A DNA stretch of 32,000 bases from assembly GCA_903832735.1 (NCBI GenBank), contig CAILCO010000065.1, positions 1,350 through 33,349 of the forward strand, given 5' to 3'. Position 1 is the stretch's first letter; each line of letters begins with the position of its first letter. Of the stretch, positions 10,715 through 23,330 are shown piece by piece. The notes beneath the pieces were generated by a model, which worked only from the letters and a program-made list of their open reading frames with translations, made no database searches and was not told the origin of the DNA. This stretch comes from an uncultured Sterolibacterium sp. (GTDB lineage: Bacteria > Pseudomonadota > Gammaproteobacteria > Burkholderiales > Rhodocyclaceae). Position numbers and translations under genes: made by a program.

Positions 10715-11038
10715 ATGATCCATGAATTCAAGACCTACCGCGCGGCCCCCGGCAAGATAGCCGCCCTGATCAAGCGCTTCGAACAGACCACGATGCCGAT
10801 CTTCGCCCGCCTGGGAATCGAAGTGCTGCATTGCTGGACCAGCACCGCCGAGCCCGACGCGTTTTTCTACATGGTCCGCTTCGCCTCGGCAGAAGCCGGC
10901 AAGGATGCCTGGGCCGCGTTCGGAGCCGATGCCGAATGGAAGGCTGCCAAAGCCGCGAGCGAAACCGAGGGCCCGCTCTTGGCCTCCCAGACCACGGTTT
11001 ATCTGCAGCCCACTGCCTTTTCGCCGTTCTCTTCGTAA
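10715..11038 (+). CDS. NIPSNAP family protein (first gene of the operon)
   Basis: 107 aa: MIHEFKTYRAAPGKIAALIKRFEQTTMPIFARLGIEVLHCW...FFYMVRFAS, a dimeric alpha-beta barrel NIPSNAP pattern. GGAGAG RBS. Confidence 0.85.
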   Translation: MIHEFKTYRAAPGKIAALIKRFEQTTMPIFARLGIEVLHCWTSTAEPDAFFYMVRFASAEAGKDAWAAFGADAEWKAAKAASETEGPLLASQTTVYLQPTAFSPFSS

Positions 11039-11042
11039 TTCC

Positions 11043-11921
11043 ATGAAAGCGGCTCCCTTCGAGTATGTGCGCGCCGAGTCGCTGGATCATGCCTGCCAGA
11101 TGCTGGTGCAGCATGGCGACGAAGCCAAACTGATCGCCGGCGGCCAGAGCCTGGTGCCGATGCTGGCGATGCGCCTCCTGGCGCCCGCCTGGCTGGTCGA
11201 TATTCACGGCCTGTCCGAATTGCAGCAGATCGCCATCGCCGAGGATCAACTGGTGATCGGCGCGGCGGTGCGTCAGTGCGTGGCCGACGCCGATCCCCGG
11301 CTGAACAGCGCGGTCCCGCTGTTGTCGCGTGCGCTGCACTGGGTTGGCCATGCCGCCACGCGCAATCGCGGCACCGTCGGCGGCAGTCTGGCGCATGCCG
11401 ATCCATCGGCCGAACTGGCACTTTCCGCCGCCTTGCTCGAGGCGACCCTGACCCTTCGGAGCGAGCGGGGCTCGCGGCAGGTCGCGGCCGGCGATTTTCT
11501 GATCGGTCCGATGATGACCTGTCTGGAAGCGGACGAATGCCTGCTCGAGGTACGCTTTCCGATCTGGCAGGAGGCGAGGACAGGCAGCGCTTTCGAAGAA
11601 ATCAGCGCGCGTCATGGCGACTTCGCCATCGTCTCGGCCGCGGCCCAAGTCGGCGTCGATCAGACCGGGCGGTGCACGCGGGCGGCGCTGGCGATCGGCG
11701 GCGCCGGTCCCTCGGCACTGGCCTTCAACGATCTGGCCCGGCGCTTGGTCGGCACGCGACTCGAAGACGGCCTGCTGCGCGATCTGGCGCAACAAGTCGC
11801 GGCCAAGGTCGAGCCGACCAGCGACCTGCAGGCCAGCGCGGCCTACCGCCACCATCTTGCCGGCGTGCTCGCCGAACGAGCGCTCCTGGGCGCGAAACGA
11901 GACGCCGGGCTGTCCTCCTGA
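11043..11921 (+). CDS. Molybdenum hydroxylase FAD-binding medium subunit (CoxM/XdhB-like)
   Basis: MKAAPFEYVRAESLDHACQMLVQHGDEAKLIAGGQSLVPMLAMRL, ATRNRGTVGGSLAHADPSAE, AYRHHLAGVL. The start is 4 nt after the NIPSNAP stop. Confidence 0.9.
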   Translation: MKAAPFEYVRAESLDHACQMLVQHGDEAKLIAGGQSLVPMLAMRLLAPAWLVDIHGLSELQQIAIAEDQLVIGAAVRQCVADADPRLNSAVPLLSRALHWVGHAATRNRGTVGGSLAHADPSAELALSAALLEATLTLRSERGSRQVAAGDFLIGPMMTCLEADECLLEVRFPIWQEARTGSAFEEISARHGDFAIVSAAAQVGVDQTGRCTRAALAIGGAGPSALAFNDLARRLVGTRLEDGLLRDLAQQVAAKVEPTSDLQASAAYRHHLAGVLAERALLGAKRDAGLSS

Positions 11922-11931
11922 GAGATTACTC

Positions 11932-12417
11932 ATGACTGAAAAAACCATCCTGGTCAGCCTGGAAGTCAATGGCAAGCCGGTCTCCGCCCGCGTCCCGGCG
12001 CGCACCACGCTGGTCGACTTCCTGCGCGACGAATTGCGCCTGACCGGCACCCATGTAGGCTGCGAGCACGGCACCTGCGGCGCCTGCACGGTGATGCTGG
12101 ACGGCGAGCCGATCCGCTCCTGCCTGGTCTTCGCGGTGCAGTTGGAGGGGCAAAGGATCACCACCGTCGAAGGCCTGACCAAACCCGACGGCAGCCTCTC
12201 CATCCTCCAGGACAGCTTTGCCGAGGCGCATGCCCAGCAGTGCGGCTACTGCACGCCGGGCATGCTGATCAGCGCGCAGTCCCTGCTGAACAACAACCCC
12301 CAGCCCAGCGACGACGAGATTCGCGTGGCGATCTCCAGCAACCTGTGCCGGTGTACCGGCTATCAGCAGATCGTCAATGCCGTCGGCATGGCCGCCGAAC
12401 GCATGGCCAAGGAGTAG
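11932..12417 (+). CDS. Molybdenum hydroxylase (2Fe-2S)-binding small subunit (CoxS-like)
   Basis: GCEHGTCGACTV and QCGYCTPGM...CRCTGY: the two [2Fe-2S] cysteine clusters of the xanthine dehydrogenase family small subunit. Confidence 0.92.
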   Translation: MTEKTILVSLEVNGKPVSARVPARTTLVDFLRDELRLTGTHVGCEHGTCGACTVMLDGEPIRSCLVFAVQLEGQRITTVEGLTKPDGSLSILQDSFAEAHAQQCGYCTPGMLISAQSLLNNNPQPSDDEIRVAISSNLCRCTGYQQIVNAVGMAAERMAKE

Positions 12418-12421
12418 CGAG

Positions 12422-14815
12422 ATGGAGCAGGCCTTCAAGTACATCGGCGCCAAGCGGCGCACCAAGGAGGCGCCGCGGTTCCTCACCGGATCGGGGCGTT
12501 TCGTCGCGGACATCCATCTGCCCGGGATGAAGCATGTGGCGATCGTCGCTTCACCCCATCCCAGCGCCAGGATCATCTCGATCAACACCGAGGCAGCCAG
12601 GGCCATGCCGGGCGTGCGCTATATTCTCGACGGCGAGGAGTTCTGCGCCCATACCGATACCCTCTATGTCGGCGTCGATGCGCCGAAACTCAAGCGTTAC
12701 GCGCTGGCCCGCGATGTAGTGCGCTATTCCGGCGAGTGGGTGGTGGCGGTGGTCGCCGACAGCCGCGCCCAGGCCGAGGATGCCGCCGAACTGGTCGAGG
12801 TCGAATACCAGGCCACGCCGCATGTCATCGATCCCGAACTGTCGTTGCGCGATGATGCGCCGCTGATCCATCCCGAGCACGGCAGCAACCAGCTGTACCA
12901 CCGCAAGTTCGTCTGGGGCCCGGTCGAGGCGGCTTTTCGCGAAGCCGAGGAGCGGGTGTCGTTCCGCGTCACCTGGGGCCGCAGTTCGACGGTGCCGATC
13001 GAGACCTTCGGCGTGCTCGCCCAGTGGCACGAAGCCGATCAGTTGCTCGACGTCTGGGCCTCGATCCAGATGCCCAAGTATCCCGACCAGCTGGCGCGCG
13101 CGCTGCGCCTGCCGGGCAATGCCGTGCGCGTCCATTACGACGTCGATGTCGGCGGCAGCTTCGGCCTGAAGCGCGGCATCAAGCATACCGTGCTGGTCTC
13201 CTATCTGGCGCGCAAGGTCGGCGCGCCAGTGCGTTTCATCGAGGACCGCCTGGAGAACATGCGCGGCGGCGACATGCACGGGCCGGACCGCTTCTTCGAT
13301 GTCGAGGTCGCCTTCAACCGCGACGGCATCATCAAGGGCTTGCGCATCCGCGCCGTCGATGACGTCGGCGCCTATGCCGGCCGCTCGCCGCTGCAACTGG
13401 GCAAGCCGGTCAGCGCGATCTGCGGTCCGTACCAGATCCATGCGATCGAATACGAACCGACTTCGGTGATGACCAACAAGACACCGCAGGAGGCGGTGCG
13501 CGGCTTCGGCCAGGCACCGACCAACCTGGCGCTGGAACGCACCATGGATCACGTGGCGCGGCACCTGGGCATGGACCCGATTGAGCTGCGACGCAAGAAT
13601 TTCATCCGCAAGGATCAGTTCCCCTACCTGATCCCCAGCGGCTCGACCTACGACTCCGGCGACTACCATACGGTACTCGACAAAGCCCTGGCTGCGATCG
13701 ATTATCCCGAACTGCTGCGCCAACGCGACAGCCTGCGCGCCGCGGGCGCGCTGGCCGGCATCGGCATCTCGACCTGTCTCGAACCGAGCGGCGGCAACTC
13801 GGCTTTCGAACCGCTGTTCAATGCCAAGAACGACACCACGACCTGGATGGACTCCTGCCTGGTGCGGGTCGATCTCTCCGGCGCGATCACCGGCGTGATG
13901 GGCACTTCCAGCGCCGGCCAGGGCCATGAAACGCTGGTGGCCACGGTGTTGGGCGAAGTGCTCGAGCGCGAGCCGGACAAGATCCGCGTGGTCCATGCCG
14001 ATTCCCTGAATGCCCTGCCGTCGAACAGCCCGGTCGGCAGCCGCATGGCGATCATGCTGGGCGGCGCCGCGGCCGGTGCCGCCCGCAAGCTCAAGGCGAC
14101 GCTGATCCGGCTGGCCGCGCACAACCTCGGTTGTGCCATCGACGACATCGAATACGCCGATGGCAATACCTCTGTCCGCGGCAATCCAGAGAGGGGGCTT
14201 AGCTGGGACAAACTGGTCGAGATCGCCCACCGCAAATTCCATCTGCTGCCGCCCGAAATGGAGCCCGGTCTGCAAGCCAGCTTCGTCTGGGAAGTGCCGA
14301 CCGGCGGCGGCTTGCCGACCGAGGATGGGCGCATCCAGATCTACCCTTGCTATTCCTTCGAGGCACATGTGCTACTGATCAAGATCGATGCCGACACCGG
14401 CCGGCCGAAGATCCTGAAATATCTCTGCGGCCACGATTGCGGCGTGATGATCAACCCGGACGTGGTCCACGGCATGACCTACGGCGGCATCGCCCACGGC
14501 ATCGGCGCCGCGCTCTACGAGAAGTTCGCCTACACCGAGGAAGGAGAACTGGCCAGCGGCACCCTGATGGATTATCTGATTCCGAGTTCGATGGAAGTGC
14601 CGGAATTGCATATCGTCGATCACTGCACGCCGTCGCCCCTGACCACCTTCGGCCAGAAGGGCTCGGGCGAGTCCGGCTATCTCGGTTCCGCCGCCGCCAT
14701 CTGCAACGCGGTCAATGACGCGCTCGCGCCGCGGGGAAAATCGATCGAGACCTTGCCGATGAGCAACCTGGCCATCTGGAACACGCTCCACGCCACCCTA
14801 TCCGCTACCCGCTAG
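12422..14815 (+). CDS. Molybdopterin-binding large subunit of a xanthine dehydrogenase/CoxL-family hydroxylase (not a true CO dehydrogenase)
   Basis: 797 aa: KRRTKEAPRFLTGSGRFVADI, VGGSFGLK, QEAVRGFGQAPT, GQGHETL, GSGESGY. The CODH form-I loop VAYRCSFR is absent; AVRGFGQ appears to occupy the equivalent position. Confidence 0.92.
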   Translation: MEQAFKYIGAKRRTKEAPRFLTGSGRFVADIHLPGMKHVAIVASPHPSARIISINTEAARAMPGVRYILDGEEFCAHTDTLYVGVDAPKLKRYALARDVVRYSGEWVVAVVADSRAQAEDAAELVEVEYQATPHVIDPELSLRDDAPLIHPEHGSNQLYHRKFVWGPVEAAFREAEERVSFRVTWGRSSTVPIETFGVLAQWHEADQLLDVWASIQMPKYPDQLARALRLPGNAVRVHYDVDVGGSFGLKRGIKHTVLVSYLARKVGAPVRFIEDRLENMRGGDMHGPDRFFDVEVAFNRDGIIKGLRIRAVDDVGAYAGRSPLQLGKPVSAICGPYQIHAIEYEPTSVMTNKTPQEAVRGFGQAPTNLALERTMDHVARHLGMDPIELRRKNFIRKDQFPYLIPSGSTYDSGDYHTVLDKALAAIDYPELLRQRDSLRAAGALAGIGISTCLEPSGGNSAFEPLFNAKNDTTTWMDSCLVRVDLSGAITGVMGTSSAGQGHETLVATVLGEVLEREPDKIRVVHADSLNALPSNSPVGSRMAIMLGGAAAGAARKLKATLIRLAAHNLGCAIDDIEYADGNTSVRGNPERGLSWDKLVEIAHRKFHLLPPEMEPGLQASFVWEVPTGGGLPTEDGRIQIYPCYSFEAHVLLIKIDADTGRPKILKYLCGHDCGVMINPDVVHGMTYGGIAHGIGAALYEKFAYTEEGELASGTLMDYLIPSSMEVPELHIVDHCTPSPLTTFGQKGSGESGYLGSAAAICNAVNDALAPRGKSIETLPMSNLAIWNTLHATLSATR

Positions 14816-14826
14816 AGAGAGAGAAG

Positions 14827-15864
14827 ATGAAAAACCTGATCATCGATATTCATGCCCACTATCTGCCCAAGCTGTTGATCGAGCGTTTCGACGCGCATGC
14901 CGCGGACTTTCCCGGCGTCGGGCTGACCAAGAACGACAAGGGCGTGATCCTGAAGTTTCCCGGCGCCGAGCCGACCCGGCCGATTTCGCCGAAGCTTTCC
15001 GACCTGGCCGAGCGCAAGTCGTGGATGCAGCAAAATGGCATCGACCATCAGCTGGTCGGCGGCTGGCTCGACAGTTTCGGCTACGAACTGCCCGCCGCCG
15101 AAGGCCTGGCCTGGAGCCGTTACATCAACGAGTGCATGTGGCAGGGTCTGGCCGACGAGCCGCGGTTCACGCCGCTGGCCACCGTGCCGCTGCAGGACGG
15201 CAAACTCGCCGCGGAAGTGCTCGAGGAAGCCATGGAGCGCGGTTTCGGTGGGATCATGATCGGCACCTTGCCGAAGGGGCAGGGCGGCAATCTCGACGAT
15301 GCCGCGCTCGATCCTTTCTGGGAAAAGGCCTCCGAATTGAAGGCCGCCGTGGTTCTGCACCCGATGTTCATCTGCGGCGAGCCGAGGCTCGCCGACTACG
15401 ATCTGGTCAATGCCATCGGCCGCCTGGCCGACACCTCGATCGCGGTGTCGCGCCTGCTCTTCTCCGGCCATATCCTCAAGTACTCGGGCATGAAGCTGGT
15501 CCTCTGCCACGGCGGCGCCGCCTTGCCCCTGGCGCTCGGCCGGCTGATCCGCAACCACGGCATCGCCCACGGCAAATATTCCGATCCGCGCAAGAACTTC
15601 GAGGCGATGTTCTTCGACTCCTGCGTTTTCGATCCGGATGCGCTCGATTTCCTCGTCAAGAAGACCGGCAACGGCCGGGTCATGATGGGCTCGGACAGCC
15701 CCTTCCCGATCGGCGATCCGGCGCCGCAGAAGGTGGTCATGGAGTGCAGCCTGGACCAGGCTGAGCGCATCGCGATACTCACCGAGACGGCGCAAAAGGT
15801 GTTCACCCTGCGTCACGATGTCTGCTGCCAGCCGATCGCCGGCGCGGCCGCCGGGAAAGCATGA
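14827..15864 (+). CDS. Amidohydrolase_2 / ACMSD-family non-oxidative decarboxylase
   Basis: MKNLIIDIHAHYLP (HxH), VLHP, LCHGGAALP, MMGSDSPFP: the ligand pattern of the ACMSD/LigW/gamma-resorcylate decarboxylase superfamily. The stop overlaps the next start (ATGA at 15861-15864). Confidence 0.9.
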   Translation: MKNLIIDIHAHYLPKLLIERFDAHAADFPGVGLTKNDKGVILKFPGAEPTRPISPKLSDLAERKSWMQQNGIDHQLVGGWLDSFGYELPAAEGLAWSRYINECMWQGLADEPRFTPLATVPLQDGKLAAEVLEEAMERGFGGIMIGTLPKGQGGNLDDAALDPFWEKASELKAAVVLHPMFICGEPRLADYDLVNAIGRLADTSIAVSRLLFSGHILKYSGMKLVLCHGGAALPLALGRLIRNHGIAHGKYSDPRKNFEAMFFDSCVFDPDALDFLVKKTGNGRVMMGSDSPFPIGDPAPQKVVMECSLDQAERIAILTETAQKVFTLRHDVCCQPIAGAAAGKA

Positions 15865-17492
15865 GCGAGGCCACGCACCGCTATCCCGACCTGCACCAGC
15901 ATCTCGACGAGTTGGCGCGGCGCGGCCGCTTGCAGGTCATCGATCGTGCCATCGACAAGGATGCCGAACTGCATCCGCTGGTGCGCTGGCAGTTCGTTGG
16001 CGGCATGGCCGAAGCCGAGCGCAAGGCCTTCCTGTTCACCAACATCGTCAATGCCCAGGGCCGCCGGTACAAGTTCCCGGTGGTCGTCGGCGCCCTGGCG
16101 GCGAACCGGGAAATCTATTCCGTCGGCATGGGTACGACGGTGGACAAGATCCAGGAGAAATGGGATCAGGCCATCGCCAATCCGATTCCGCCTCGCCTGG
16201 TCAGCCGGGCCGAGGCCGTCTGCCAGGAAGTGATTCATGAGGGCCTGGCCCTGCAGGGCGAGGGCAACGGCCTGGATATGCTGCCGATCCCGATTTCGAC
16301 GCCCGGCTTCGACAGCGCGCCGACCCTGACCGCGACCAATGTCATCACCTGCGACCCGGTCACCGGCGTGCAGAACATGGGCACCTACCGCTGCGCCCTG
16401 AAGGCGCCCGATCGTCTGGTGGTGCGCATGGCCACGAGAGTCGGCGGCGCCGGCGGCTACCTGCATTATCAGGCGTGGCAGGCGGCCGGCCACAAGACCA
16501 TGCCCTGCGCCATCGTCCTGGGTTGCCCGCCCTTCGTCGCCTTCATGGGCCCGCAGAAGCTGCCGATCGGGATGGACGAACTCGACGTCGCCGGCGGTCT
16601 GGCCGGCGAGCCTATAGAAGTGGTCATGGCGCACAGCGTCGCGCTGCGCGTGCCGGCGCAGGCCGAGATCGTGATCGAGGGACTGGTCGATCTGGAGATG
16701 CTCGAACCGGAAGCGCCGTTCGGGGAATCGCACGGCCACGTCGCCCTGGAAGAATTCAACCTGCCGATGAAGATCACGGCGATCACCCATCGCAAGCTGC
16801 CAGTGATTCCCTCGTACCTCAGCCAGGTGGCGCCCTCCGAATCCAGCGTGATCAAGCGCGTCGCTTACGAGCCGCTGTTCTTCGCACATCTGAAAACCTC
16901 CCTGGGCATTCGCGGCGTCAAGCGGGTATCGCTGCACGAGCCCTTGACCGGCCTGCTGCGCTTCACCATCATCACCTTCGAGCGGAACACGCCGCGCACC
17001 GAGATCTGGCGCGCGCTCTACGGCGCCGCGTTCTTCAAGGGCGATTGCGGCAAGATCTGCCTCGCGGTCAATGACGACATCGATCCGGACAATGCCGATG
17101 CGCTGTTCTGGGCGATGTCCTACCGGATGAATCCGGTCGATGACGTGCGCACCCTCGACCATCGCGGCCAAGGCCACGGACCGAAGCGGGAAGCCGAAGG
17201 CGAGGAGGATTCGACCCTGCTGATGGACGCCACGATGAAGGGCGACATGCCGCCGCTGGCCCTGCCGACCCGCGAGTACATGGAGCGCGCCCGGGTCCTC
17301 TGGGACGAGATGGGCTTGCCGGCGCTGCGTCCGCAGCCGCCGTGGTTCGGCTATTCGCTGGGCGACTGGCTGCCGCAATGGGATGCCGCGGCGAAGCGCG
17401 CCGCGACCGGCCACTATCTGGAAAATGGCCGCATCAGCCTTGCCGAGCAGCGCAACGACGTCAAGGCCGAATCGAAGTTTCGTCCCGCGTAG
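15861..17492 (+). CDS. UbiD-family (prenyl-FMN-dependent) decarboxylase, paralog 1 (543 aa)
   Basis: LHPLVRWQF, ISTPGFD, VQNMGTYR, EPEAPFGESHGH (compare UbiD EGPFGDHTGY), NDDIDPDNADALFWAM. ATGA overlap with the upstream gene. Confidence 0.92.
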   Translation: MSEATHRYPDLHQHLDELARRGRLQVIDRAIDKDAELHPLVRWQFVGGMAEAERKAFLFTNIVNAQGRRYKFPVVVGALAANREIYSVGMGTTVDKIQEKWDQAIANPIPPRLVSRAEAVCQEVIHEGLALQGEGNGLDMLPIPISTPGFDSAPTLTATNVITCDPVTGVQNMGTYRCALKAPDRLVVRMATRVGGAGGYLHYQAWQAAGHKTMPCAIVLGCPPFVAFMGPQKLPIGMDELDVAGGLAGEPIEVVMAHSVALRVPAQAEIVIEGLVDLEMLEPEAPFGESHGHVALEEFNLPMKITAITHRKLPVIPSYLSQVAPSESSVIKRVAYEPLFFAHLKTSLGIRGVKRVSLHEPLTGLLRFTIITFERNTPRTEIWRALYGAAFFKGDCGKICLAVNDDIDPDNADALFWAMSYRMNPVDDVRTLDHRGQGHGPKREAEGEEDSTLLMDATMKGDMPPLALPTREYMERARVLWDEMGLPALRPQPPWFGYSLGDWLPQWDAAAKRAATGHYLENGRISLAEQRNDVKAESKFRPA

Positions 17493-17521
17493 TTTCGTTC
17501 CGAACAGGCTAGAGAAAAAAT

Positions 17522-18118
17522 ATGGAAATCAATGGCGAACGGCTCATCGGCGCTGCGCAGAAAACCGTCTGGGAGGCGATCAACGATCCCGACATGCTGA
17601 AGCGCTGCATCCCAGGCTGCGAGAGCGTCGAGGGGGTCGATGAGACGCAGATGAAGGCCGTGGTGATGGCCAAGATCGGTCCGGTCCGGGCGCGCTTCAC
17701 CGGCCGCGTGAGCATGGCCGACGTCGTCGCGCCCGATTCCTGCACGCTGAATTTCGAGGGCACCGGCGGCCCGGCCGGCTTCGCCAAGGGCCAGGCCAAG
17801 GTGGCGTTGACTGCGCAGGGGCCGAGCGAAACCCTGCTGGTCTTTTCCGCCTCGGCCTCGGTCGGCGGCAAGCTCGGACAAATCGGTGCGCGGCTGATCG
17901 AGTCGGCGGCGCGGGCCATTTCCGACGAGTTCTTCAATCATCTGATGGCGCAACTGTCGCCCCAGGGTGCGGCCGCGGTAGCGGTCAGCGCCCCGGTCGA
18001 GCAGCCGCCTGAGGCGGGGGCGTCGCTGGCCGTGGATTGGAGCGCCTTGCTCGGTTCGCGCTGGGCCATCGGTCTGGGCTGCTTGGTGCTGGGATTCTTG
18101 GCTGGAAAGTTTATCTAG
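17522..18118 (+). CDS. CoxG-like SRPBCC protein with a C-terminal membrane anchor
   Basis: MEINGERLIGAAQKTVWEAINDPDMLKRCIPGCESVEGVDETQMKAVVMAKIGPVRARFTG: CoxG (carbon monoxide dehydrogenase subunit G) family. Terminal helix AIGLGCLVLGFLAGKFI. Confidence 0.85.
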   Translation: MEINGERLIGAAQKTVWEAINDPDMLKRCIPGCESVEGVDETQMKAVVMAKIGPVRARFTGRVSMADVVAPDSCTLNFEGTGGPAGFAKGQAKVALTAQGPSETLLVFSASASVGGKLGQIGARLIESAARAISDEFFNHLMAQLSPQGAAAVAVSAPVEQPPEAGASLAVDWSALLGSRWAIGLGCLVLGFLAGKFI

Positions 18119-18125
18119 GAACGCA

Positions 18126-18932
18126 ATGAACACTTCGACGACAAATCAGATTGCAGTGAACGGAATCACCGTCAGCTACGAGGTGGCAGGCTCGGGTCCC
18201 TGGTTGATCCTCAGTCACTCGCTGGGCTGCAGCAAAACGATGTGGCAGCCGCAATTCGCGGAACTGGCCAAGTCCTACCGGGTGCTCGCCTACGACACCC
18301 GCGGTCACGGCGCCAGCAGCGCGCCGCCGGGGCCATACACGCTGGACCTGCTGGCGCAGGACGTCCACGAGTTGTGCCTCGCCCTGGGCATCACCAAGTG
18401 CCATTTCGTCGGCCTGTCGATGGGTGGCATGATCGGCCAGACCGTGGCCCTGAATTATCCCGATCTGTTGTTGAGCCTGACCCTGGCCGACACCAGCAGC
18501 GCCTACGGGCCGGCGGCTTTGCCGTTCTGGCTGGGGCGGGCCCAGACCGCCCTGAGCCAGGGCATGGCGGCGCTGGTCGCGCCGTCCCTGGAGCGCTGGT
18601 TCACCGCGCCCTTCCGTGCCGCCCAGGCGGCGCTGATGGTGCAGGCCGGGCAATGGCTGCTGGACACACCGGCGGTCGGCTATGCCGCCTGCTGTCTGGC
18701 GATCGCACCGCTGGACACCACCGCGCGACTGCCGCAGATCACTGTGCCGGTGCTGGTGATCGTCGGCGCCGAGGATGCGGCGACGCCGCCTGCCGCGGCC
18801 GAACTCATCCATGCGCAAATCCCCGGTTCCCGGCTGCTCAAGCTTCCGTCTGCCGCGCATCTGTCCAGCGTCGAGCAGCCGGCGGCGTTCAATCGCGCCT
18901 TGCGGGAATTTCTGCAGAACGCCCCGGACTGA
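18126..18932 (+). CDS. Alpha/beta-fold hydrolase, 3-oxoadipate enol-lactonase (PcaD)-like
   Basis: LILSHSLGCS, YDTRGHGAS, nucleophile elbow GLSMGG, PVLVIVGAEDAATPP, AAHLSSVEQP. Confidence 0.88.
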   Translation: MNTSTTNQIAVNGITVSYEVAGSGPWLILSHSLGCSKTMWQPQFAELAKSYRVLAYDTRGHGASSAPPGPYTLDLLAQDVHELCLALGITKCHFVGLSMGGMIGQTVALNYPDLLLSLTLADTSSAYGPAALPFWLGRAQTALSQGMAALVAPSLERWFTAPFRAAQAALMVQAGQWLLDTPAVGYAACCLAIAPLDTTARLPQITVPVLVIVGAEDAATPPAAAELIHAQIPGSRLLKLPSAAHLSSVEQPAAFNRALREFLQNAPD

Positions 18933-18993
18933 AGCGTATCGCCGCCAAGGTCGCCAATAATCTCGGCGGCGGAGACGAACTTAAAGGAGCAAC

Positions 18994-20034
18994 ATGACTG
19001 GCTCATTATTGAGGAGATCCCTGTTCCTGGCGCTGGCCTGCCTGGCGCTGCAGGCCGCTGCGCAGGCGCCATCGGCGCTGCTCTATGACGGGGCCGACCG
19101 GAACGACAAGCTCGCCGCGGCGGCGGCCAAGGAAGCCACGCTGACGCTGTACACGGCATTCCGTCCGCAGGATCTGCCGGCCATACTCGGACCGTTCGAA
19201 AAGAAAACCGGCATCAAGGTCAAGGCCTGGCGTTCCGGCAGCAACAATGTGACGCAGCGGGTATTGACCGAGGCCGGCGGCAAGCGCTTCGAGGTCGATG
19301 CGATCATGATGCCGGCGCAGGAGATGGAGGCGGTGCGCCGCGAACAGATCCTTCAGCCGGTCTATTCGCCCTACCAGAAGGACCTGATGCCCGGTGCCTT
19401 GCCGGCCGATCACCAGTCGGCGACGGTGCTGATGAACGTCGTGGTCCAGGTCTACAACACCCGGCTGCTGAAGAAGCAGGATCTGCCCAGGAGCTATCAG
19501 GATCTGCTCGACCCGAAATGGAAGGGCAAGCTCGGCATCGAAGCCAAGGCCGAGGAATGGTACGCCGCGGTGGTGCTGGCGATGGGCGAGGAGAAGGGCG
19601 TCAGGATGTTCCGCGAGATGGTCGCGAAGAACGGTATCTCGGCGCGCCTGGGCGTCTCGCTGCTGAACAACCTGGTGGTCTCCGGCGAAGTGCCGCTGGC
19701 CCTGACCGTGTATATCGATCTGCCGGAAAAGGGCAAGCGCGAGGGCAAGCCGATCGACTGGTTCGGGCTCGACCCGGTGGTGGCGCACGGCTTCAATATC
19801 GCCCTGGCGCGGCGCGCGCCGCATCCGAATGCGGCGCTGTTGTTCTACGACTACATGCTCTCGCCCGAGACGCAGAAACTGCTGGCCTCGCTGCTCTATT
19901 ATCCGGCCAGCACCAAGGCGGCTTCGCAATATCCGGGGCTGCACCTCAAGGTCGTCGATCCGGTCTATGCCGTCGATAATGCCGAGAAGTGGATGAAGTC
20001 CTTCGACGATGCGGTGATCAAACAGGCCCGTTAG
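18994..20034 (+). CDS. Periplasmic ABC-type substrate-binding protein (family 1; Fe3+/polyamine-type fold) with no adjacent permease or ATPase
   Basis: AAGGAG RBS; signal peptide MTGSLLRRSLFLALACLALQAAAQA. LTLYTAFRPQDL...FEKKTGIKVK...WKGKLG is typical of FbpA/AfuA/PotD-like SBPs. Confidence 0.85.
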   Translation: MTGSLLRRSLFLALACLALQAAAQAPSALLYDGADRNDKLAAAAAKEATLTLYTAFRPQDLPAILGPFEKKTGIKVKAWRSGSNNVTQRVLTEAGGKRFEVDAIMMPAQEMEAVRREQILQPVYSPYQKDLMPGALPADHQSATVLMNVVVQVYNTRLLKKQDLPRSYQDLLDPKWKGKLGIEAKAEEWYAAVVLAMGEEKGVRMFREMVAKNGISARLGVSLLNNLVVSGEVPLALTVYIDLPEKGKREGKPIDWFGLDPVVAHGFNIALARRAPHPNAALLFYDYMLSPETQKLLASLLYYPASTKAASQYPGLHLKVVDPVYAVDNAEKWMKSFDDAVIKQAR

Positions 20035-20056
20035 AAAACCCGATACCGGAGTGAAC

Positions 20057-21829
20057 ATGAGCACCAGAAAATCTGCAGCGAAGAAAATACCGGCCGTTGC
20101 CTCGGTCTCGGCTGGAAAGAAATCCACCTCGCGCGGCTATCGCGATTTGCACGAGCATCTGGCCGAACTCGACCGTGCCGGCTTGCTGATCACAGTCGAT
20201 CGCGAGATCAACAAGGACACGGAAATGCATCCGCTGGTGCGCTGGCAATTCCGCGGCGGCATTGCCGAACCGGAGCGCAAGGCATTTCTGTTCACCAATG
20301 TGACCGACAGCAAGGGTCACAAGTACGACATCCCGGTGGTCGTGGGTGGCCTTGCGGCATCGCGGAAAATCTACAGCGTCGGCATGGATTGCGCGATTGC
20401 GGATATCGGCAAGAAATGGAGTCACGCCATTGCCCATCCGATCCTGCCCAATGTCGTGGACAGCGATGCCGCGCCCTGCCAGGAAATCGTCATCACCGGC
20501 AAGGAACTGCTCAAGCCGGGCAAGGGGCTGGACGGCATCCCGATTCCGATTTCGACGCCGGGTTGGGACAACGCGCCCTATACCACCTTGTCGCAATACA
20601 TCTCCAAGGATCCGGACAGCGGCATCCAGAACATGGGTGTCTATCGCGGCCAGGTCAAATCCCCGACGCGCCTGGGCATGAATCCCTCGCTGGAGAACCA
20701 GCCCGGTATCTACGCTCACTGGGAGAAGGCCAAGGCGCGCGGCGAGAAGCTGCCCGCCGCGGTGATCCTCGGCTGCCCACCCTGCGTGGCCTTCACCTCG
20801 GTGCAGAAATTGCCCGAGGACACCGATGAACTGCATGTCGCCGGCGGGCTGGCCGGGGCACCGATCAACGTGGTGAAGTGCAAGACCGTGGATCTCCTGG
20901 TGCCGGCCGATGCGGAAATCGTCATCGAAGGCTATATCAATACCGAATGGCTGGAACCGGAAGCGCCGTTCGGCGAATCCCACGGCCACGTGAACCTGCA
21001 GGAATTCAACGCCTACATGGAGATCACGGCGATCACACGGCGACGCGATGCGATCCTGACCTCGATCATTTCCCAGGTCACACCGTCGGAGTCCAGCCTG
21101 ATCAAGCGGGTCGCTCTGGAGCCGGTGTTCCTCAATCACTTGCAGCGGCAGTTGGGGATCAAGGGCGTGCTCAAGGTTTCGATGCACGAACCGCTGACCA
21201 ATCTGCGCAAGGTTCTGGTCGTGGTGCTCGCGCGCAAGGTGCCGCCGACCGAGGTCTGGCGCGCGCTCTATGGCGCGGCATCGCTGTTGCGCTCCGGCGG
21301 CAAGCTGGTGGTCGCGGTCAATGACGACATCGATCCCGACAATGCCGACGCGCTGCTCTGGGCGATGTGCTATCGCGCCAATTTCGCACTCGATCTGCAG
21401 ACCCTGAAGAACCGCGACCCCGGGCACGGCCCGCGCAGTCCGCGCAACAACGGCGTCGACGCCTCGCTGCTGATCGACGCCACGCTGAAGGACGACTTCC
21501 CGCCGATCGCCCTGCCGAAAAAGCAATTCATGGAAGACGCCAAGGCCATCTGGGAGGAACTGGGCCTGCCCAAGCTGAAACCCGAGGCGCCTTGGCACGG
21601 GTATTTGCTGGGCGACTGGAGCCCGCGCAACGAAGAGATGGCGCAACGGGCCGTGCGCGGCGATTACTTCATCACCGGCGAAGAAATCGCCCGGCAGCGG
21701 CGTAACGACGTGGCCATGAATACCGAGATCGATTCTCACGATGCCGTGCTCGGCGGCGGAAAAACGGCGAAAGCTTCGGCCGCGAAGAAAGCCGCGCGGG
21801 GCGCGAAGAAGCCGGGCAAAGCAAAGTAA
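20057..21829 (+). CDS. UbiD-family decarboxylase, paralog 2, with Lys/Ala-rich N- and C-terminal tails
   Basis: Same motifs as paralog 1 (MHPLVRWQF, ISTPGWD, IQNMGVYR, EPEAPFGESHGH, NDDIDPDNADALLWAM). Tails are MSTRKSAAKKIPAVASVSAGKKSTSRG and GGGKTAKASAAKKAARGAKKPGKAK. The ATG at 20057 has GGAG 6 nt upstream; the track start at 20051 is a GTG. Confidence 0.9.
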   Translation: MSTRKSAAKKIPAVASVSAGKKSTSRGYRDLHEHLAELDRAGLLITVDREINKDTEMHPLVRWQFRGGIAEPERKAFLFTNVTDSKGHKYDIPVVVGGLAASRKIYSVGMDCAIADIGKKWSHAIAHPILPNVVDSDAAPCQEIVITGKELLKPGKGLDGIPIPISTPGWDNAPYTTLSQYISKDPDSGIQNMGVYRGQVKSPTRLGMNPSLENQPGIYAHWEKAKARGEKLPAAVILGCPPCVAFTSVQKLPEDTDELHVAGGLAGAPINVVKCKTVDLLVPADAEIVIEGYINTEWLEPEAPFGESHGHVNLQEFNAYMEITAITRRRDAILTSIISQVTPSESSLIKRVALEPVFLNHLQRQLGIKGVLKVSMHEPLTNLRKVLVVVLARKVPPTEVWRALYGAASLLRSGGKLVVAVNDDIDPDNADALLWAMCYRANFALDLQTLKNRDPGHGPRSPRNNGVDASLLIDATLKDDFPPIALPKKQFMEDAKAIWEELGLPKLKPEAPWHGYLLGDWSPRNEEMAQRAVRGDYFITGEEIARQRRNDVAMNTEIDSHDAVLGGGKTAKASAAKKAARGAKKPGKAK

Positions 21830-21907
21830 TATGGAGCAGGTCGCCCTTCAGGGCGGTCATGATAAGCGCCAGAGAGGCGCCGGAGTTTAGGGGATAGGGG
21901 AGGCAAG

Positions 21908-23320
21908 ATGCAGGATAGCGCGACAGTGGGTGCCGGACAGGGCGGCGCGGCAGGCAAGTTGACGGCAGCCGCTTTGGTATTTCGACTGGAGAGCGTGCCT
22001 TTTTCCCGGTGGCACTCCAAGGCGCGAATCTTGATCGGCAGCGCGACCTTCTTCGATGCCTTCGACGCGCTGGCGCTGGCCTTCGTGTTGCCGGTGCTGA
22101 TCGGTCTGTGGAAGATCACGCCGGTACAGATCGGCTTCCTGATTGCCTCCAGCTATATCGGTCAACTGGTCGGCGCCCTGGTGTTCGGCTGGCTGGGCGG
22201 CAAATACGGGCGCATCAAGAGCATCACCGGGGCCGTCGCGATCATGTCGGTGATGTCGCTGGCCTGTGCCTGGTGCGGCAATCTGAACGCGCTCCTGGCC
22301 TGCCGTTTCATCCAGGGCATCGGCATCGGCGGCGAAATGCCGGTGGCCGCGGCCTACATCAGCGAGCTTTCCAAAGCCCAGGGACGGGGCAAATACTTCA
22401 TGCTCTACGAGATGCTGTTTCCGGTCGGTCTGATGGCGTCCGGCCAGGTCGGCGCCTGGCTGGTGCCGCAGATCGGCTGGACGATCATGTTCCTGATCGG
22501 CGGCGTCGCCGGTTGCCTGATCACCTTCTTCATCGTCCGCCTGCCCGAATCGCCACGCTGGCTGATCTCCAAGGGCCGCCTGAAGGAAGCCGACCAGGTG
22601 GTGCAGCAGATCGAGGCGAGCACCGCGAAGCGGGTCGTGCCCACGGTCGCGACCCAGGGCGCGCTCGATGCGGCAGCGGCCTTCGCCGTAGGCAATGCCA
22701 AGCAGCGGCAGGGCTGGCGTGAGCTGTTCTCGGGCTTTTATCGCAGCCGGACGCTGGTCGTCTGGGTGCTCTGGGCGGCCACTTATTTTGTCTCGAATAG
22801 TCTGAACAACTGGCTGCCGACGCTCTACAAAACGGTCTACCACCTCAATCTCCAGGATTCGCTGCGCGCGGCGTCGATGACCAACGTGGCGCAGGTGCTG
22901 ATGCTCCTGCTTTGCGCCTTCTGCATCGACCGGATCGGCCGGCGCAACTGGGTGGCGGCGTCTTTCGTGATCGGCGGCAGCCTGCTCGGCCTGCTCGGTT
23001 TCATGGGCGCGGGCAACGTCACCAGCGTGATGATCCTGGCGACGATCAGCTATGGCGTGATCGGCTCGACCGCCGCGGTGCTCTACTTATACACGCCGGA
23101 AATCTACCCGACGCGGGTCCGGGCGATCGGCACCGGCATCGCCACCTCATGGTTGCGCCTGGCCTCGGCGGTGGGACCGGCGATCGTCGGCATGTTGGTG
23201 CGCGACGAGGGCATCGATTCGGTGTTCATCATGTTTGCAGGCGTCAGTGTGGTCGGTGCGCTCGCCTCCTGTCTGATGATCGAGACCCGCCAGCGCAGCC
23301 TGGAGGAGATCGCGCCGTAA
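21908..23320 (+). CDS. MFS transporter (sugar-porter / aromatic-acid:H+ symporter-like)
   Basis: 12-TM pattern, GWLGGKYGRIKS (loop 2-3 motif), PESPRWL, YTPEIYPTRVRAIG. GGGGAGG RBS. Confidence 0.9.
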   Translation: MQDSATVGAGQGGAAGKLTAAALVFRLESVPFSRWHSKARILIGSATFFDAFDALALAFVLPVLIGLWKITPVQIGFLIASSYIGQLVGALVFGWLGGKYGRIKSITGAVAIMSVMSLACAWCGNLNALLACRFIQGIGIGGEMPVAAAYISELSKAQGRGKYFMLYEMLFPVGLMASGQVGAWLVPQIGWTIMFLIGGVAGCLITFFIVRLPESPRWLISKGRLKEADQVVQQIEASTAKRVVPTVATQGALDAAAAFAVGNAKQRQGWRELFSGFYRSRTLVVWVLWAATYFVSNSLNNWLPTLYKTVYHLNLQDSLRAASMTNVAQVLMLLLCAFCIDRIGRRNWVAASFVIGGSLLGLLGFMGAGNVTSVMILATISYGVIGSTAAVLYLYTPEIYPTRVRAIGTGIATSWLRLASAVGPAIVGMLVRDEGIDSVFIMFAGVSVVGALASCLMIETRQRSLEEIAP

Positions 23321-23330
23321 AGGCAGAGTG

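What the first reader, a model, noticed from the sequence alone, without database searches (positions are those of the whole stretch)
10715..23320. Eleven-gene, oxygenase-free operon: a CoxMSL-type molybdenum hydroxylase with three non-oxidative decarboxylases. Uncharacterised (hetero)aromatic polycarboxylate pathway?
Seen directly:
- Eleven same-strand genes are separated by 4-78 nt, or overlap at ATGA (15861-15864).
- Their order is NIPSNAP, FAD subunit, 2Fe-2S subunit, Mo subunit, ACMSD-type amidohydrolase_2 decarboxylase, UbiD-1, CoxG, PcaD-like alpha/beta hydrolase, SBP, UbiD-2, MFS.
- No mono- or dioxygenase, CoA ligase or ring-cleavage enzyme is present.

Established knowledge:
- Mo hydroxylases insert water-derived OH next to ring N or into activated heteroaromatics (nicotinate, picolinate, quinolinate, furoyl-CoA).
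- ACMSD-family enzymes decarboxylate ortho-hydroxy aromatic acids (3,6-dihydroxypicolinate, 5-carboxyvanillate, gamma-resorcylate).
- UbiD enzymes decarboxylate aromatic or heteroaromatic acids (furan-2,5-dicarboxylate, phthaloyl-CoA, pyrrole-2-carboxylate).

Inference:
- This combination matches none of the clusters I know (pic, nic, qui, hmf, pht).
- It suggests an O2-independent upper pathway that hydroxylates and then strips several carboxyl groups from a polycarboxylated pyridine, furan or benzene substrate.
- The substrate is not deducible from sequence.
Basis: partly seen in the sequence, partly recalled or inferred. Interest (0 to 1): 0.65.

Follow-up and report, generated by a model that had tools for sequence, protein, structure and literature searches.

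The report
Uncharacterised aromatic-acid breakdown operon, widely conserved
This is a real, tightly packed gene cluster for breaking down an unidentified carboxylated ring compound without classical oxygenases; its core enzyme pair recurs in many freshwater and soil bacteria, and I found no studied counterpart.

Summary
Eleven same-strand genes (10715-23320) have the stated domains, order and spacing, and no canonical oxygenase or CoA ligase.

The unit is larger than reported. A convergent LysR gene and a divergent ABC importer (23331-26848) belong to it, because in sister genomes the importer genes sit inside the operon.

- Both UbiD paralogues (54% identical) keep the catalytic motifs.
- The amidohydrolase keeps the ACMSD metal, base and substrate-arginine residues.
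- The Mo subunit lacks the CO-dehydrogenase loop.
- The hydrolase just passes the PcaD equivalog cut-off.

Across 80 related genomic loci the full order recurs in seven. The conserved core is only UbiD-1 plus CoxMSL: 36 of 45 well-flanked loci. UbiX follows UbiD-1 in 48 of 80 loci but is absent from this window.

The cluster is not orthologous to the hmf, lumazine, pic or dip clusters. However, hmf and lumazine already combine a Mo hydroxylase with a UbiD enzyme, so the logic has precedent.

Best reading: a LysR-regulated catabolic unit for a heteroaromatic di- or tricarboxylate. It would work by prFMN decarboxylation, water-derived hydroxylation, ACMSD-type decarboxylation and hydrolysis. The substrate is unknown.

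It is a new variant of a known kind, of moderate interest.

The parts
10620..10660 (+). Conserved upstream operator-like element. The type-A consensus is TGTCAGTTAATCTCAC-N6-GTGAGATTAAT..GATTGT. The dyad lies at 10626-10651.
   Evidence: Alignment of eight type-A upstream regions shows an invariant block. There is a single match in the window and 0 in 100 shuffles. A stricter 20-nt form of the dyad (ATCTCAC-N6-GTGAGAT, at most 2 mismatches) was found in only four of 94 sequences searched, all upstream of NIPSNAP in type-A loci (L002, L006, L009, L010); the window's own copy is too degenerate to pass that search. Binding by the LysR protein is inferred, not shown.
10657..10685 (+). Sigma-70-like promoter candidate (TTGTCC-17-CATAAT), 30 nt upstream of the first gene.
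   Evidence: Consensus scan. This is weak evidence: 3 sites were found against 2.7 expected. The -10 region is partly conserved in the alignment.
10715..11038 (+). NIPSNAP-family protein (107 aa, dimeric alpha+beta-barrel clan). Role unknown. Candidate tautomerase/isomerase or accessory protein.
   Evidence: Pfam PF07978 2e-14. It is 71-90% identical and first in the operon in all seven type-A loci. Divergent NIPSNAP genes also lie near the cluster in L058 and L086.
11043..11921 (+). FAD subunit (CoxM type) of a three-subunit molybdenum hydroxylase.
   Evidence: PF00941 2e-43 and PF03450 6e-21. AGGQSL motif present. Gene call from the source contig.
11932..12417 (+). [2Fe-2S] subunit (CoxS type).
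   Evidence: PF01799 1e-30 and PF00111. Both cysteine motifs are present: C-x4-C-x2-C and C-x2-C...C-x-C.
12422..14815 (+). Molybdopterin subunit (CoxL type, 797 aa). A hydroxylase, not a CO dehydrogenase.
   Evidence: Three Pfam domains. Best PDB match is quinoline 2-oxidoreductase 1t3q, 5e-118. The CODH NCBIfam models score 436-438 bits against cut-offs of 950-991. The active-site loop reads VGAYAGRS. By my recollection the form I CODH signature is AYxCSFR and form II AYRGAGR. The catalytic-Glu motif GSGESG is present.
14827..15864 (+). ACMSD-type amidohydrolase_2, a probable metal-dependent non-oxidative decarboxylase.
   Evidence: PF04909. Best PDB match is ACMSD, 3e-37. The alignment keeps equivalents of ACMSD H9, H11, R51, H177, H228, R239 and D294.
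15861..17492 (+). UbiD-1, a prFMN-dependent decarboxylase (543 aa). It is the most conserved gene of the unit.
   Evidence: PF01977 5e-46. N-x4-R, E-x-PFGE and DEL..AG motifs present. Best PDB matches are the HmfF proteins 6h6x and 6h6v, about 30% identity. It is 75-93% identical in 80 genomic loci.
17522..18118 (+). CoxG-like SRPBCC protein with a C-terminal hydrophobic helix. Probable membrane tether for the hydroxylase.
   Evidence: PF06240 8e-29. Residues 176-194 have a mean Kyte-Doolittle hydropathy of 1.7. The tethering role is inferred from my own knowledge of CoxG in CO dehydrogenase.
18126..18932 (+). PcaD-like alpha/beta hydrolase (enol-lactonase type).
   Evidence: TIGR02427 scores 257.5 bits against a cut-off of 255.85. 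PDB 2xua, a 3-oxoadipate enol-lactonase, matches at 7e-53. G-L-S-M-G nucleophile motif present.
18994..20034 (+). Periplasmic solute-binding protein (SBP_bac_8 class, signal peptide). It travels with UbiD-2 in other lineages.
   Evidence: Pfam. Distant match to Fe3+-binding HitA/FbpA, 2e-14. It is adjacent to UbiD-2, or separated from it only by the ABC importer genes, in type-A and many type-B loci.
20057..21829 (+). UbiD-2, a paralogous prFMN-dependent decarboxylase (590 aa).
   Evidence: PF01977 2e-53. It is 54% identical to UbiD-1 with the same catalytic motifs. Orthologues of 72-91% identity occur in 18 of 80 loci.
21908..23320 (+). MFS transporter most similar to the aromatic acid:H+ symporter family.
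   Evidence: Pfam Sugar_tr/MFS_1. TIGR00895 scores 227 bits, which is below its cut-off of 418.
23331..24251 (-). LysR-type (GcvA-like) regulator, convergent with the MFS gene and divergent from the ABC importer.
   Evidence: PF00126 and PF03466. NF008352 scores 279 bits against a cut-off of 288. It is 74-82% identical at the same place in L001, L002, L006 and L009. Homologues of 45-56% identity lie next to UbiD-1 in type-B loci.
24348..26848 (+). NitT/TauT-type ABC importer: NMT1-like binding protein 24348-25322, permease 25350-26105, ATPase 26102-26848.
   Evidence: Pfam and NCBIfam. In L002, L009 and L010 these three genes sit inside the operon between SBP and UbiD-2, at 70-77% identity.

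Best explanation
A LysR-controlled catabolic unit of 15 genes (10715-26848) for an unidentified carboxylated heteroaromatic acid, most likely a di- or tricarboxylate.

Proposed steps:
1. Uptake by an aromatic-acid-type MFS carrier and a binding-protein-dependent ABC importer.
2. Removal of ring carboxyl groups by two paralogous prFMN-dependent UbiD decarboxylases. The prFMN would come from a UbiX encoded elsewhere in the genome.
3. Insertion of a water-derived hydroxyl by a CoxMSL-type molybdenum hydroxylase. It would be tethered to the membrane through CoxG and pass electrons to the respiratory chain.
4. Removal by the ACMSD-type metal decarboxylase of a carboxyl made labile by the new adjacent hydroxyl.
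5. Processing of the oxo/lactone tautomer by the PcaD-type hydrolase, possibly helped by the NIPSNAP protein.

Shown here: gene content, intact catalytic motifs, operon packing and conserved synteny. Inferred: the order of steps, the electron route and the substrate class.

My rough split for the substrate:
- N-heteroaromatic, about 40%
- furan or other O-heterocycle, about 25%
- carbocyclic aromatic, about 15%
- other, about 20%
For: - Domains and packing.
- UbiD catalytic motifs are present in both paralogues.
- ACMSD metal, base and arginine residues are kept.
- CoxL has the catalytic Glu and lacks the CODH loop; it scores far below the CODH cut-offs.
- PcaD equivalog reached, and PDB 2xua matches at 7e-53.
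- The MFS is nearest to the aromatic-acid symporters.
- The same gene order occurs in seven genomes. UbiD-1 lies next to a CoxL orthologue in 36 of 45 well-flanked loci.
- UbiX lies directly downstream of UbiD-1 in 48 of 80 loci, including type-A loci L002 and L003.
- The ABC genes lie inside the operon in L002, L009 and L010.
- A conserved operator-like dyad lies upstream.
- A CoxMSL-hydrolase-ECH-CoxG module exists without UbiD on a Burkholderia plasmid. This fits UbiDs acting as feeders into a hydroxylase/hydrolase module.
Against: - No experimental datum exists for any member, and the substrate is unknown.
- No ubiX and no DUF4936 lie in the window.
- Accessory genes differ between lineages and identity patterns suggest module shuffling. 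The eleven genes may not serve one linear pathway.
- UbiD-1 orthologues (75%) also occur without CoxL, in quite different contexts.
- The solute-binding protein resembles Fe3+ binders only distantly.
- The PcaD score is barely above its cut-off.
Confidence: 0.65

Rival explanations
1. A CoA-independent furan (or pyrrole/thiophene) carboxylate route that ends in a central metabolite.

Proposed steps:
1. The UbiDs trim a furan di- or tricarboxylate to 2-furoate.
2. The Mo hydroxylase makes 5-hydroxy-2-furoate.
3. This tautomerises, helped by NIPSNAP, to the 2-oxoglutarate enol-lactone.
4. The PcaD-type lactonase opens the lactone to 2-oxoglutarate.
For: - Both UbiDs have HmfF as their nearest solved relative.
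- Genuine hmf clusters share the architecture CoxL/M/S, CoxG, ECH, UbiD and MFS or TctC.
- The hydrolase is a PcaD-type enol-lactonase.
- The mass balance closes on 2-oxoglutarate, which would explain why no downstream genes are present (inference).
Against: - Identity to HmfF is only 30-33% and to HmfA only 36-38%, no better than to unrelated family members.
- The His that sets furan specificity in HmfF (H297 as numbered in PMC7976604; residue 296 by my count of the aligned chain) aligns to Ser in both UbiDs.
- The known furoyl hydroxylase acts on the CoA ester, and there is no CoA ligase here.
- The ACMSD-type enzyme and the second UbiD have no role unless the substrate is a tricarboxylate.
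Confidence: 0.15
2. A pteridine/purine-type pathway related to the Cupriavidus LA-1 lumazine cluster. There a Mo dehydrogenase, an amidohydrolase_2 and a UbiD convert a hydroxylated N-heterocycle, via a ring-contracted carboxylate such as xanthine-8-carboxylate, to a purine.
For: - The same three enzyme families occur in a characterised cluster.
- The NMT1/THI5-like binding protein belongs to a family that, by my own knowledge, binds pyrimidines and flavins.
- UbiD-1 orthologues (75%) lie beside GTP cyclohydrolase II, RibD_C, PTPS and creatininase-family genes in L065 and L076.
Against: - The window lacks a pterin deaminase, a CobW-like GTPase, a second amidohydrolase subunit, UbiX and nucleobase permeases.
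- DHLI subunits are about 27 kDa with Asp235. The window's enzyme is 345 aa, is ACMSD-like, and its Asp is at 290.
- LuDH falls outside the COX group, whereas this CoxL scores best on CODH and Qor models.
- Gene order is M-S-L here, not L-S-M.
Confidence: 0.1
3. A mosaic rather than one pathway. Two or more independent modules would be packed together and co-regulated, each acting on a different but related acid. The modules would be CoxMSL-Amido2, UbiD-1(-UbiX), and SBP-UbiD-2 with CoxG and the hydrolase.
For: - Type-B loci keep UbiD-1 at 80-86% identity but CoxL at only 62-69%.
- Type-C loci keep UbiD-1 at 75-78% but CoxL at 71-77%, with Amido2.
- SBP and UbiD-2 travel together.
- CoxMSL-hydrolase-ECH-CoxG occurs without any UbiD.
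Against: - Seven genomes keep the whole order, with gaps of 4-78 nt, one overlap and a single conserved upstream operator.
- UbiD-1 and CoxMSL are adjacent in 36 of 45 loci.
Confidence: 0.15
4. The annotation-level reading: an aerobic CO dehydrogenase (CoxMSLG) next to ubiquinone-biosynthesis UbiD decarboxylases.
For: Database names such as '4-hydroxy-3-polyprenylbenzoate decarboxylase' and 'carbon monoxide dehydrogenase' are attached to homologues.
Against: - The CODH models score less than half of their cut-offs, and the Cu-binding Cys loop is absent.
- The UbiD equivalog PRK10922 scores 102-141 bits against a cut-off of 788.
- The genes are embedded with transporters, a lactonase and an ACMSD-type enzyme.
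Confidence: 0.02

Closest known systems
hmf furfural/HMF/furan-2,5-dicarboxylate clusters. I read the Geobacillus kaustophilus pHTA426 and Cupriavidus sp. KK10 clusters as examples of the Cupriavidus basilensis HMF14 type, on the basis of gene content and PDB 6h6x.
   Same: - A three-subunit XOR-family hydroxylase with a CoxG gene.
- A UbiD decarboxylase, which is the nearest solved relative of both UbiDs here.
- UbiX and carboxylate transporters in sister loci.
- A hydroxylation-then-hydrolysis logic without oxygenases on the ring.
   Different: - No AMP-binding CoA ligase and no ECH in the window.
- Identities are only 30-33% for UbiD, 36-38% for CoxL and 30% for CoxG.
- The furan-specifying His of HmfF is Ser here.
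- This cluster adds a second UbiD, an ACMSD-type decarboxylase, a PcaD-type lactonase and a NIPSNAP protein.
Lumazine/pterin 'cluster I' of Cupriavidus sp. LA-1 (PMC12391406)
   Same: It combines a Mo hydroxylase using water-derived oxygen, an amidohydrolase_2 enzyme and a prFMN UbiD decarboxylase, in a betaproteobacterium.
   Different: - There the amidohydrolase is a two-subunit isomerase of about 27-kDa chains that needs a CobW-like GTPase.
- That cluster also has a pterin deaminase, UbiX, nucleobase permeases and L-S-M gene order.
- None of these features is present here.
N-heteroaromatic acid clusters pic (picolinate) and nic (nicotinate)
   Same: A Mo hydroxylase as the first ring-activating step. 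An ACMSD-type decarboxylase (PicC) acts on an ortho-hydroxy acid. An alpha/beta hydrolase acts late in the pathway. This is from my own knowledge together with the abstracts listed.
   Different: Those pathways need a flavin or multicomponent monooxygenase and a ring-cleaving dioxygenase, and they contain no UbiD. None of those oxygenases is present here.
Beta-ketoadipate pathway lactone module (CatC muconolactone isomerase plus PcaD enol-lactonase)
   Same: A PcaD-type hydrolase at equivalog score. A small protein of about 100 aa from the alpha+beta-barrel clan sits in the same operon. The fold analogy to CatC is my own inference.
   Different: There are no pcaB/C/I/J/F or cat genes. NIPSNAP is not a sequence relative of muconolactone isomerase, and this was not tested structurally.

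Membership tests
UbiD family (prFMN-dependent reversible decarboxylases) | UbiD fold domains plus the catalytic E-R-E network and metal ligands (N-x4-R, E-x-PFGE, acidic residue in D-E-L) | tested here: met
   Pfam UbiD, UbiD_C and UbiD_N hits. The motifs are at N172/R177, E284..E289 and E240 in UbiD-1, and at the equivalent positions in UbiD-2.
UbiD family (prFMN-dependent reversible decarboxylases) | A partner flavin prenyltransferase UbiX | tested here: not met
   No UbiX was found in the 32-kb window by tblastn. It is present directly downstream of UbiD-1 in 48 of 80 related loci, including L002 and L003. The rest of this genome is not available.
HmfF-type furan-2,5-dicarboxylate decarboxylase / hmf cluster | Orthology to HmfF, including the furan-specifying His (H297 as numbered in PMC7976604) | tested here: not met
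   30-33% identity to HmfF of Geobacillus and Cupriavidus. That His (H297 in PMC7976604; residue 296 by my count of the aligned chain) aligns to Ser in the 'PSESS' segment of both paralogues.
HmfF-type furan-2,5-dicarboxylate decarboxylase / hmf cluster | Furoyl-CoA synthetase (AMP-binding) and an ECH-family hydrolase next to the Mo dehydrogenase | tested here: not met
   Neither family is in the window. Both are present in pHTA426. An ECH, but no ligase, occurs in type-B sister loci.
Lumazine cluster I (LuDH-DHLI-XCDC) | A two-subunit DHLI amidohydrolase_2 pair with a CobW-like GTPase, a pterin deaminase and nucleobase permeases | tested here: not met
   The window has a single 345-aa ACMSD-like amidohydrolase. 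It has no GTPase, no deaminase and no NCS permease (compared).
Lumazine cluster I (LuDH-DHLI-XCDC) | Sequence orthology of the UbiD to XCDC (LA1_0150) and of CoxL to LuDH (LA1_0145) | not testable with these tools
   [quoted passage not shown] Indirectly, LuDH is reported to lie outside the COX group, whereas this CoxL scores best on CODH and Qor models.
Aerobic CO dehydrogenase (CoxMSL form I/II) | An active-site loop with the Cu-binding Cys (AYxCSFR), or the form II AYRGAGR loop, and an equivalog score | tested here: not met
   The loop reads VGAYAGRS. TIGR02416 scores 436 bits against 991, and NF040766 scores 438 against 950. The loop signatures are from my own knowledge.
XOR-family three-subunit molybdenum hydroxylase | FAD, 2x[2Fe-2S] and Moco subunits with a catalytic Glu | tested here: met
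   All domains are present. The Cys motifs, AGGQSL and GSGESG are present.
ACMSD-type amidohydrolase_2 decarboxylases | HxH...H...D metal site, a catalytic His, and two substrate-binding Arg residues | tested here: met
   H9/H11, R (in 'TRP'), H180, H228, R (in 'GRL') and D290 align to ACMSD H9, H11, R51, H177, H228, R239 and D294. The activity itself was not tested.
PcaD 3-oxoadipate enol-lactonase | An equivalog-level score and a Ser nucleophile | tested here: met
   TIGR02427 scores 257.5 bits against a cut-off of 255.85, so it passes only marginally. PDB 2xua matches at 7e-53. GLSMG motif present.
PcaD 3-oxoadipate enol-lactonase | The genomic context of the beta-ketoadipate pathway (pcaB/C/I/J/F) | tested here: not met
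   No such genes are in the window or in the type-A loci.
dip (dipicolinate) cluster | A DipD monooxygenase, a GntR regulator DipR, and Moco independence | tested here: not met
   The pathway as described in PMC11472048 differs. Here the regulator is LysR-type, a Moco enzyme is present and there is no monooxygenase.

The most novel reading that the evidence does not exclude
The cluster encodes a complete, CoA-independent and oxygenase-free route. It would take an abundant natural five-membered (furan- or pyrrole-type) or other heteroaromatic polycarboxylate straight to a TCA-cycle intermediate. The steps would be prFMN decarboxylation, Mo-dependent hydroxylation, tautomerisation and enol-lactone hydrolysis. 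Its UbiD-1/CoxMSL core would mark a previously unrecognised sink for such acids in freshwater Betaproteobacteria such as Limnohabitans, Polaromonas and other Comamonadaceae.
Probability: 0.15. Interest if true: 0.75.

Novelty: new variant of a known kind. Interest (0 to 1): 0.55.

Why it matters
UbiD-1 is unusually conserved: 75-93% identical across Beta- and Alphaproteobacteria. Together with its hydroxylase it occurs in many metagenome-assembled genomes from lakes, groundwater and soil. Yet neither the two UbiD paralogues nor the hydroxylase has a known substrate.

Identifying the substrate would:
- add a new specificity to the small set of characterised prFMN decarboxylases;
- define a new Mo-hydroxylase specificity;
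- possibly explain how common freshwater bacteria consume a class of carboxyl-rich ring compounds without oxygenases.

One cultured strain, Oxalobacteraceae bacterium CAVE-383, carries the full operon. The question is therefore directly testable.

Tried and rejected
- **CO dehydrogenase or ubiquinone UbiD.** Rejected on equivalog scores and the active-site loop.
- **Orthology to hmf.** Rejected on 30-38% identities, the His-to-Ser change and the missing CoA ligase.
- **Orthology to the lumazine cluster.** Rejected on gene content; direct sequence comparison was impossible. Two plasmid loci I hoped were lumazine-type (Roseinatronobacter, Bosea) turned out to be unrelated UbiD contexts.
- **dip and pic clusters.** Rejected on enzyme types.
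- **Literature.** Eight full-text searches found no paper on this cluster. The library excludes most subscription journals, so absence is not proof.
- **PNPOx/YhbP-like neighbour as a PhdC-type prFMN maturase.** No sequence link to PhdC in PDB. Left as a lead.
- **Ligand clues from the binding proteins.** Only distant Fe3+-binder matches for one, and none for the NMT1-type protein.
- **tRNA and Rfam scans.** Empty.
- **Terminator and promoter scans.** Near background, apart from the site upstream of the first gene.

Full report
**Observation**

The window holds eleven + strand genes at 10715-23320. Every gene starts with ATG, has no internal stop, and follows a purine-rich ribosome-binding stretch. 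Intergenic gaps are 4, 10, 4, 11, -4, 29, 7, 61, 22 and 78 nt. The -4 is the ATGA overlap at 15861-15864.

1. NIPSNAP
2. FAD subunit
3. 2Fe-2S subunit
4. Mo subunit
5. Amidohydro_2
6. UbiD
7. COXG
8. alpha/beta hydrolase
9. solute-binding protein
10. UbiD
11. MFS transporter

No oxygenase, CoA ligase or ring-cleavage family was hit in the cluster or anywhere else in the 32 kb. The window has no tRNA or Rfam match. It is identical to part of a 68-kb ENA metagenome contig, whose gene calls I adopted for the start positions.

**The unit is larger than reported**

A GcvA-like LysR regulator lies at 23331-24251 on the minus strand. It is convergent with the MFS gene and divergent from a NitT/TauT-type ABC importer at 24348-26848. 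In three sister loci (L002, L009, L010) the importer's three genes lie inside the operon, between the binding protein and UbiD-2. The LysR gene keeps its place in L001, L002, L006 and L009. I therefore count 15 genes, 10715-26848.

Upstream of the first gene, eight type-A loci share an invariant block built around an interrupted dyad. The consensus is TTAATCTCAC-N6-GTGAGATTAA (window 10626-10651, with 3 mismatches). It occurs once in the window and never in shuffles. A stricter 20-nt form of the dyad, allowing 2 mismatches, was found only upstream of NIPSNAP in four type-A loci; the window's own degenerate copy does not pass that search. A weak sigma-70-like site follows at 10657-10685. That the LysR protein binds this element is an inference.

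**Are the enzymes intact, and what are they?**

*UbiD paralogues.* UbiD-1 and UbiD-2 are 54% identical. Both keep the N-x4-R, E-x-PFGE and D-E-L motifs that carry the catalytic Glu-Arg-Glu network and metal ligands of UbiD enzymes. Their nearest solved relatives are the two HmfF furan-2,5-dicarboxylate decarboxylases, 6h6v and 6h6x, at E 1e-35 to 1e-40 and about 30% identity. The His reported to set furan specificity in HmfF (H297 as numbered in PMC7976604; residue 296 by my count of the aligned chain) aligns to Ser in both paralogues.

*Mo subunit.* It scores best against quinoline 2-oxidoreductase and CO dehydrogenases. It reaches less than half of the CODH equivalog cut-offs. Its loop reads VGAYAGRS instead of the Cys-containing CODH signature, and it keeps the catalytic-Glu motif GSGESG. 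It is a hydroxylase of unknown specificity.

*Amidohydrolase.* It aligns end to end with ACMSD at 3e-37. It keeps the equivalents of H9, H11, H177 and D294 (metal), H228 (base), and R51 and R239 (substrate carboxylates). A decarboxylase function is therefore more likely than a hydratase or lactonase function.

*Hydrolase.* It just passes NCBI's PcaD equivalog model, 257.5 bits against 255.85. It matches the Burkholderia 3-oxoadipate enol-lactonase structure at 7e-53 and has a GLSMG nucleophile motif.

*CoxG.* It ends in a hydrophobic helix, consistent with tethering the hydroxylase to the membrane. That role is my own knowledge of CoxG.

*MFS carrier.* It is nearest to the aromatic acid:H+ symporter family, but below that family's cut-off.

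**Comparative genomics**

A scan of one genome per species returned 214 loci encoding a UbiD-1 relative. The best 80 are 75-93% identical. They come mostly from metagenome-assembled genomes:

- Betaproteobacteria: Limnohabitans, Polaromonas, other Comamonadaceae, Herbaspirillum, Herminiimonas, Sterolibacterium
- some Alphaproteobacteria
- one isolate, Oxalobacteraceae bacterium CAVE-383

The protein database holds more than 120 clusters (at 90% identity) that are at least 82% identical to UbiD-1.

I mapped all window proteins onto the 80 loci, with these results:

- The full order recurs in seven loci (type A).
- A CoxL orthologue (at least 55% identical) lies within 10 kb of UbiD-1 in 36 of the 45 loci that have at least 6 kb on both sides.
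- UbiX lies directly downstream of UbiD-1 in 48 of 80 loci, and DUF4936 in 43.
- Amido2 occurs in 20 loci, UbiD-2 in 18, SBP in 20, and the type-A PcaD-like and NIPSNAP genes in 7.

Three cluster types can be distinguished:

| Type | Example lineages | Arrangement |
|---|---|---|
| A | window, Oxalobacteraceae | full eleven-gene order |
| B | Limnohabitans and relatives | LysR divergent from UbiD-1-UbiX-DUF4936; opposite strand CoxM-S-L, a 35% hydrolase, an ECH-family protein, CoxG, SBP, UbiD-2 |
| C | other Betaproteobacteria | CoxMSL-Amido2 divergent from UbiD-1, with TctC receptors |

Further observations bear on how the modules relate:

- A Burkholderia plasmid carries CoxMSL (68%), a hydrolase, an ECH, CoxG and XdhC without any UbiD.
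- More distant members of the same UbiD subfamily (50-60% identical), on rhizobial and Paraburkholderia replicons, also sit beside XOR-family hydroxylases and UbiX.
- Identities are not congruent. Type B has the closer UbiD-1 and type C the closer CoxL, so the modules have been reshuffled.
- In the library clustered at 50% identity, full-length relatives fall off smoothly from 59% to about 31%. The subfamily has no sharply separated characterised neighbour.

**Mechanism**

*Shown:* gene content, intact catalytic residues, operon packing, and the conserved UbiD-1/CoxMSL/UbiX association.

*Inferred:* a carboxylated (hetero)aromatic acid is imported. It is decarboxylated by the prFMN enzymes and hydroxylated with water-derived oxygen, with electrons passing to the membrane. 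It is then decarboxylated again, next to the new hydroxyl, by the ACMSD-type enzyme. Finally the PcaD-type enzyme hydrolyses it. The order of steps is not established.

The UbiD-free hydroxylase module on the Burkholderia plasmid suggests that the UbiDs act as feeders. They would convert more highly carboxylated acids into the hydroxylase's substrate.

The window lacks ubiX, so prFMN must come from elsewhere in the genome. This is the model's most easily checked weakness.

**Substrate**

It cannot be deduced.

Points favouring an N-heteroaromatic acid:
- the usual chemistry of CoxL/Qor-type hydroxylases;
- the PicC and IDCase precedents for ACMSD-type enzymes;
- the lumazine precedent;
- the pterin/flavin-type neighbours of UbiD-1 orthologues in L065 and L076.

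Points favouring a furan-type acid:
- the HmfF affinity of both UbiDs;
- the architecture shared with hmf clusters, including CoxG;
- the enol-lactonase;
- the fact that furoate hydroxylation plus lactone hydrolysis gives 2-oxoglutarate, so no downstream genes would be needed.

Points against a furan-type acid:
- the His-to-Ser change;
- the missing CoA ligase.

**Comparison with known systems**

- hmf clusters are the closest in architecture, but they are distant in sequence and CoA-dependent.
- The Cupriavidus LA-1 lumazine cluster uses the same three enzyme families. It differs in amidohydrolase type and size, in accessory genes, in gene order and in hydroxylase group. A direct sequence comparison was not possible.
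- The dip cluster is Moco-independent and monooxygenase-based.
- The pic and nic clusters need oxygenases and have no UbiD.
- Eight literature searches found nothing on this cluster. The searchable library omits most subscription journals.

**Verdict**

This is an uncharacterised, widely distributed variant of the known 'Mo hydroxylase plus UbiD' type of heteroaromatic acid catabolism. It is not a categorically new system. Interest is 0.55.

Noticed in passing
L013:11656-12255, L084:11666-12583 and 48 of 80 related loci; absent from the window: ubiX lies directly downstream of UbiD-1 in most related loci. A small DUF4936 gene (94-102 aa) follows it in 43 of 80 loci. Type-A loci L002 and L003 carry ubiX between coxG and the hydrolase, but this window has lost both genes or never had them. 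DUF4936 may be an unrecognised UbiD/UbiX accessory protein.
   Followed up: partly
window 8949-9431 (-); L001:3070-3582; L071:7467-7934: A YhbP/PNPOx-like split-barrel gene lies just upstream of the operon here and in L001 (74% identical). A 39% homologue ends 2 nt before ubiX in L071, next to a UbiD-1 orthologue. It could be a flavin/prFMN accessory analogous to PhdC or YclD. No sequence link to PhdC was found in PDB.
   Followed up: partly
L076:4578-13927 and L065:4825-11665: In two Rhizobiales genomes a 75%-identical UbiD-1 orthologue lies with UbiX, GTP cyclohydrolase II, a creatininase-family protein and RibD_C, alongside a methyltransferase and a GT4 glycosyltransferase. There is also a PTPS gene (assayed in L065 only) and DUF2390 (assayed in L076 only). 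There is no CoxL. This looks like a pterin/flavin-type cluster of unknown purpose.
   Followed up: partly
window 1629-7108: A second carboxylate-type module lies upstream. It comprises a TctC receptor, an isocitrate/tartrate-dehydrogenase-family gene (2663-3733), an amidohydrolase_2 with a twin-arginine-like leader (3740-4819, minus strand), an Old Yellow Enzyme-type reductase and another TctC. Iso_dh homologues (38-43%) also sit beside UbiD-1/CoxMSL clusters in L061 and L062.
   Followed up: no
L081 (Neorhizobium plasmid) 17476-17973; L090 (Bosea plasmid) 11227-11745; L076:13400-13927: A TIGR02444 family protein lies next to ubiX in the two annotated plasmid loci, and a DUF2390 protein of similar size lies about 1.7 kb downstream of the UbiD-1 orthologue in L076; that these are the same family was not checked. 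It may be a further candidate accessory of UbiD/UbiX systems.
   Followed up: no
L088 (Burkholderia sp. PAMC 26561 plasmid) 12582-19823: A CoxM-S-L (68% CoxL), alpha/beta hydrolase, ECH, CoxG and XdhC module stands alone without any UbiD. It lies near a succinate-semialdehyde dehydrogenase and a GcvA-type regulator, in a cultured lichen isolate. This strain could be used to find the hydroxylase's substrate.
   Followed up: partly
window 18994-20034: The solute-binding protein that travels with UbiD-2 is distantly related to Fe3+-binding proteins (HitA/FbpA, E 2e-14). This raises the possibility that the transported species is a metal chelate of the acid.
   Followed up: no
window 7001-8000 and 7789-8944: GC content dips to 0.55 against about 0.64 elsewhere. 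The ORFs here have no Pfam match, apart from a faint DUF3563 hit in the source contig's gene calls. This may be an insertion or a regulatory spacer between the two catabolic modules.
   Followed up: no
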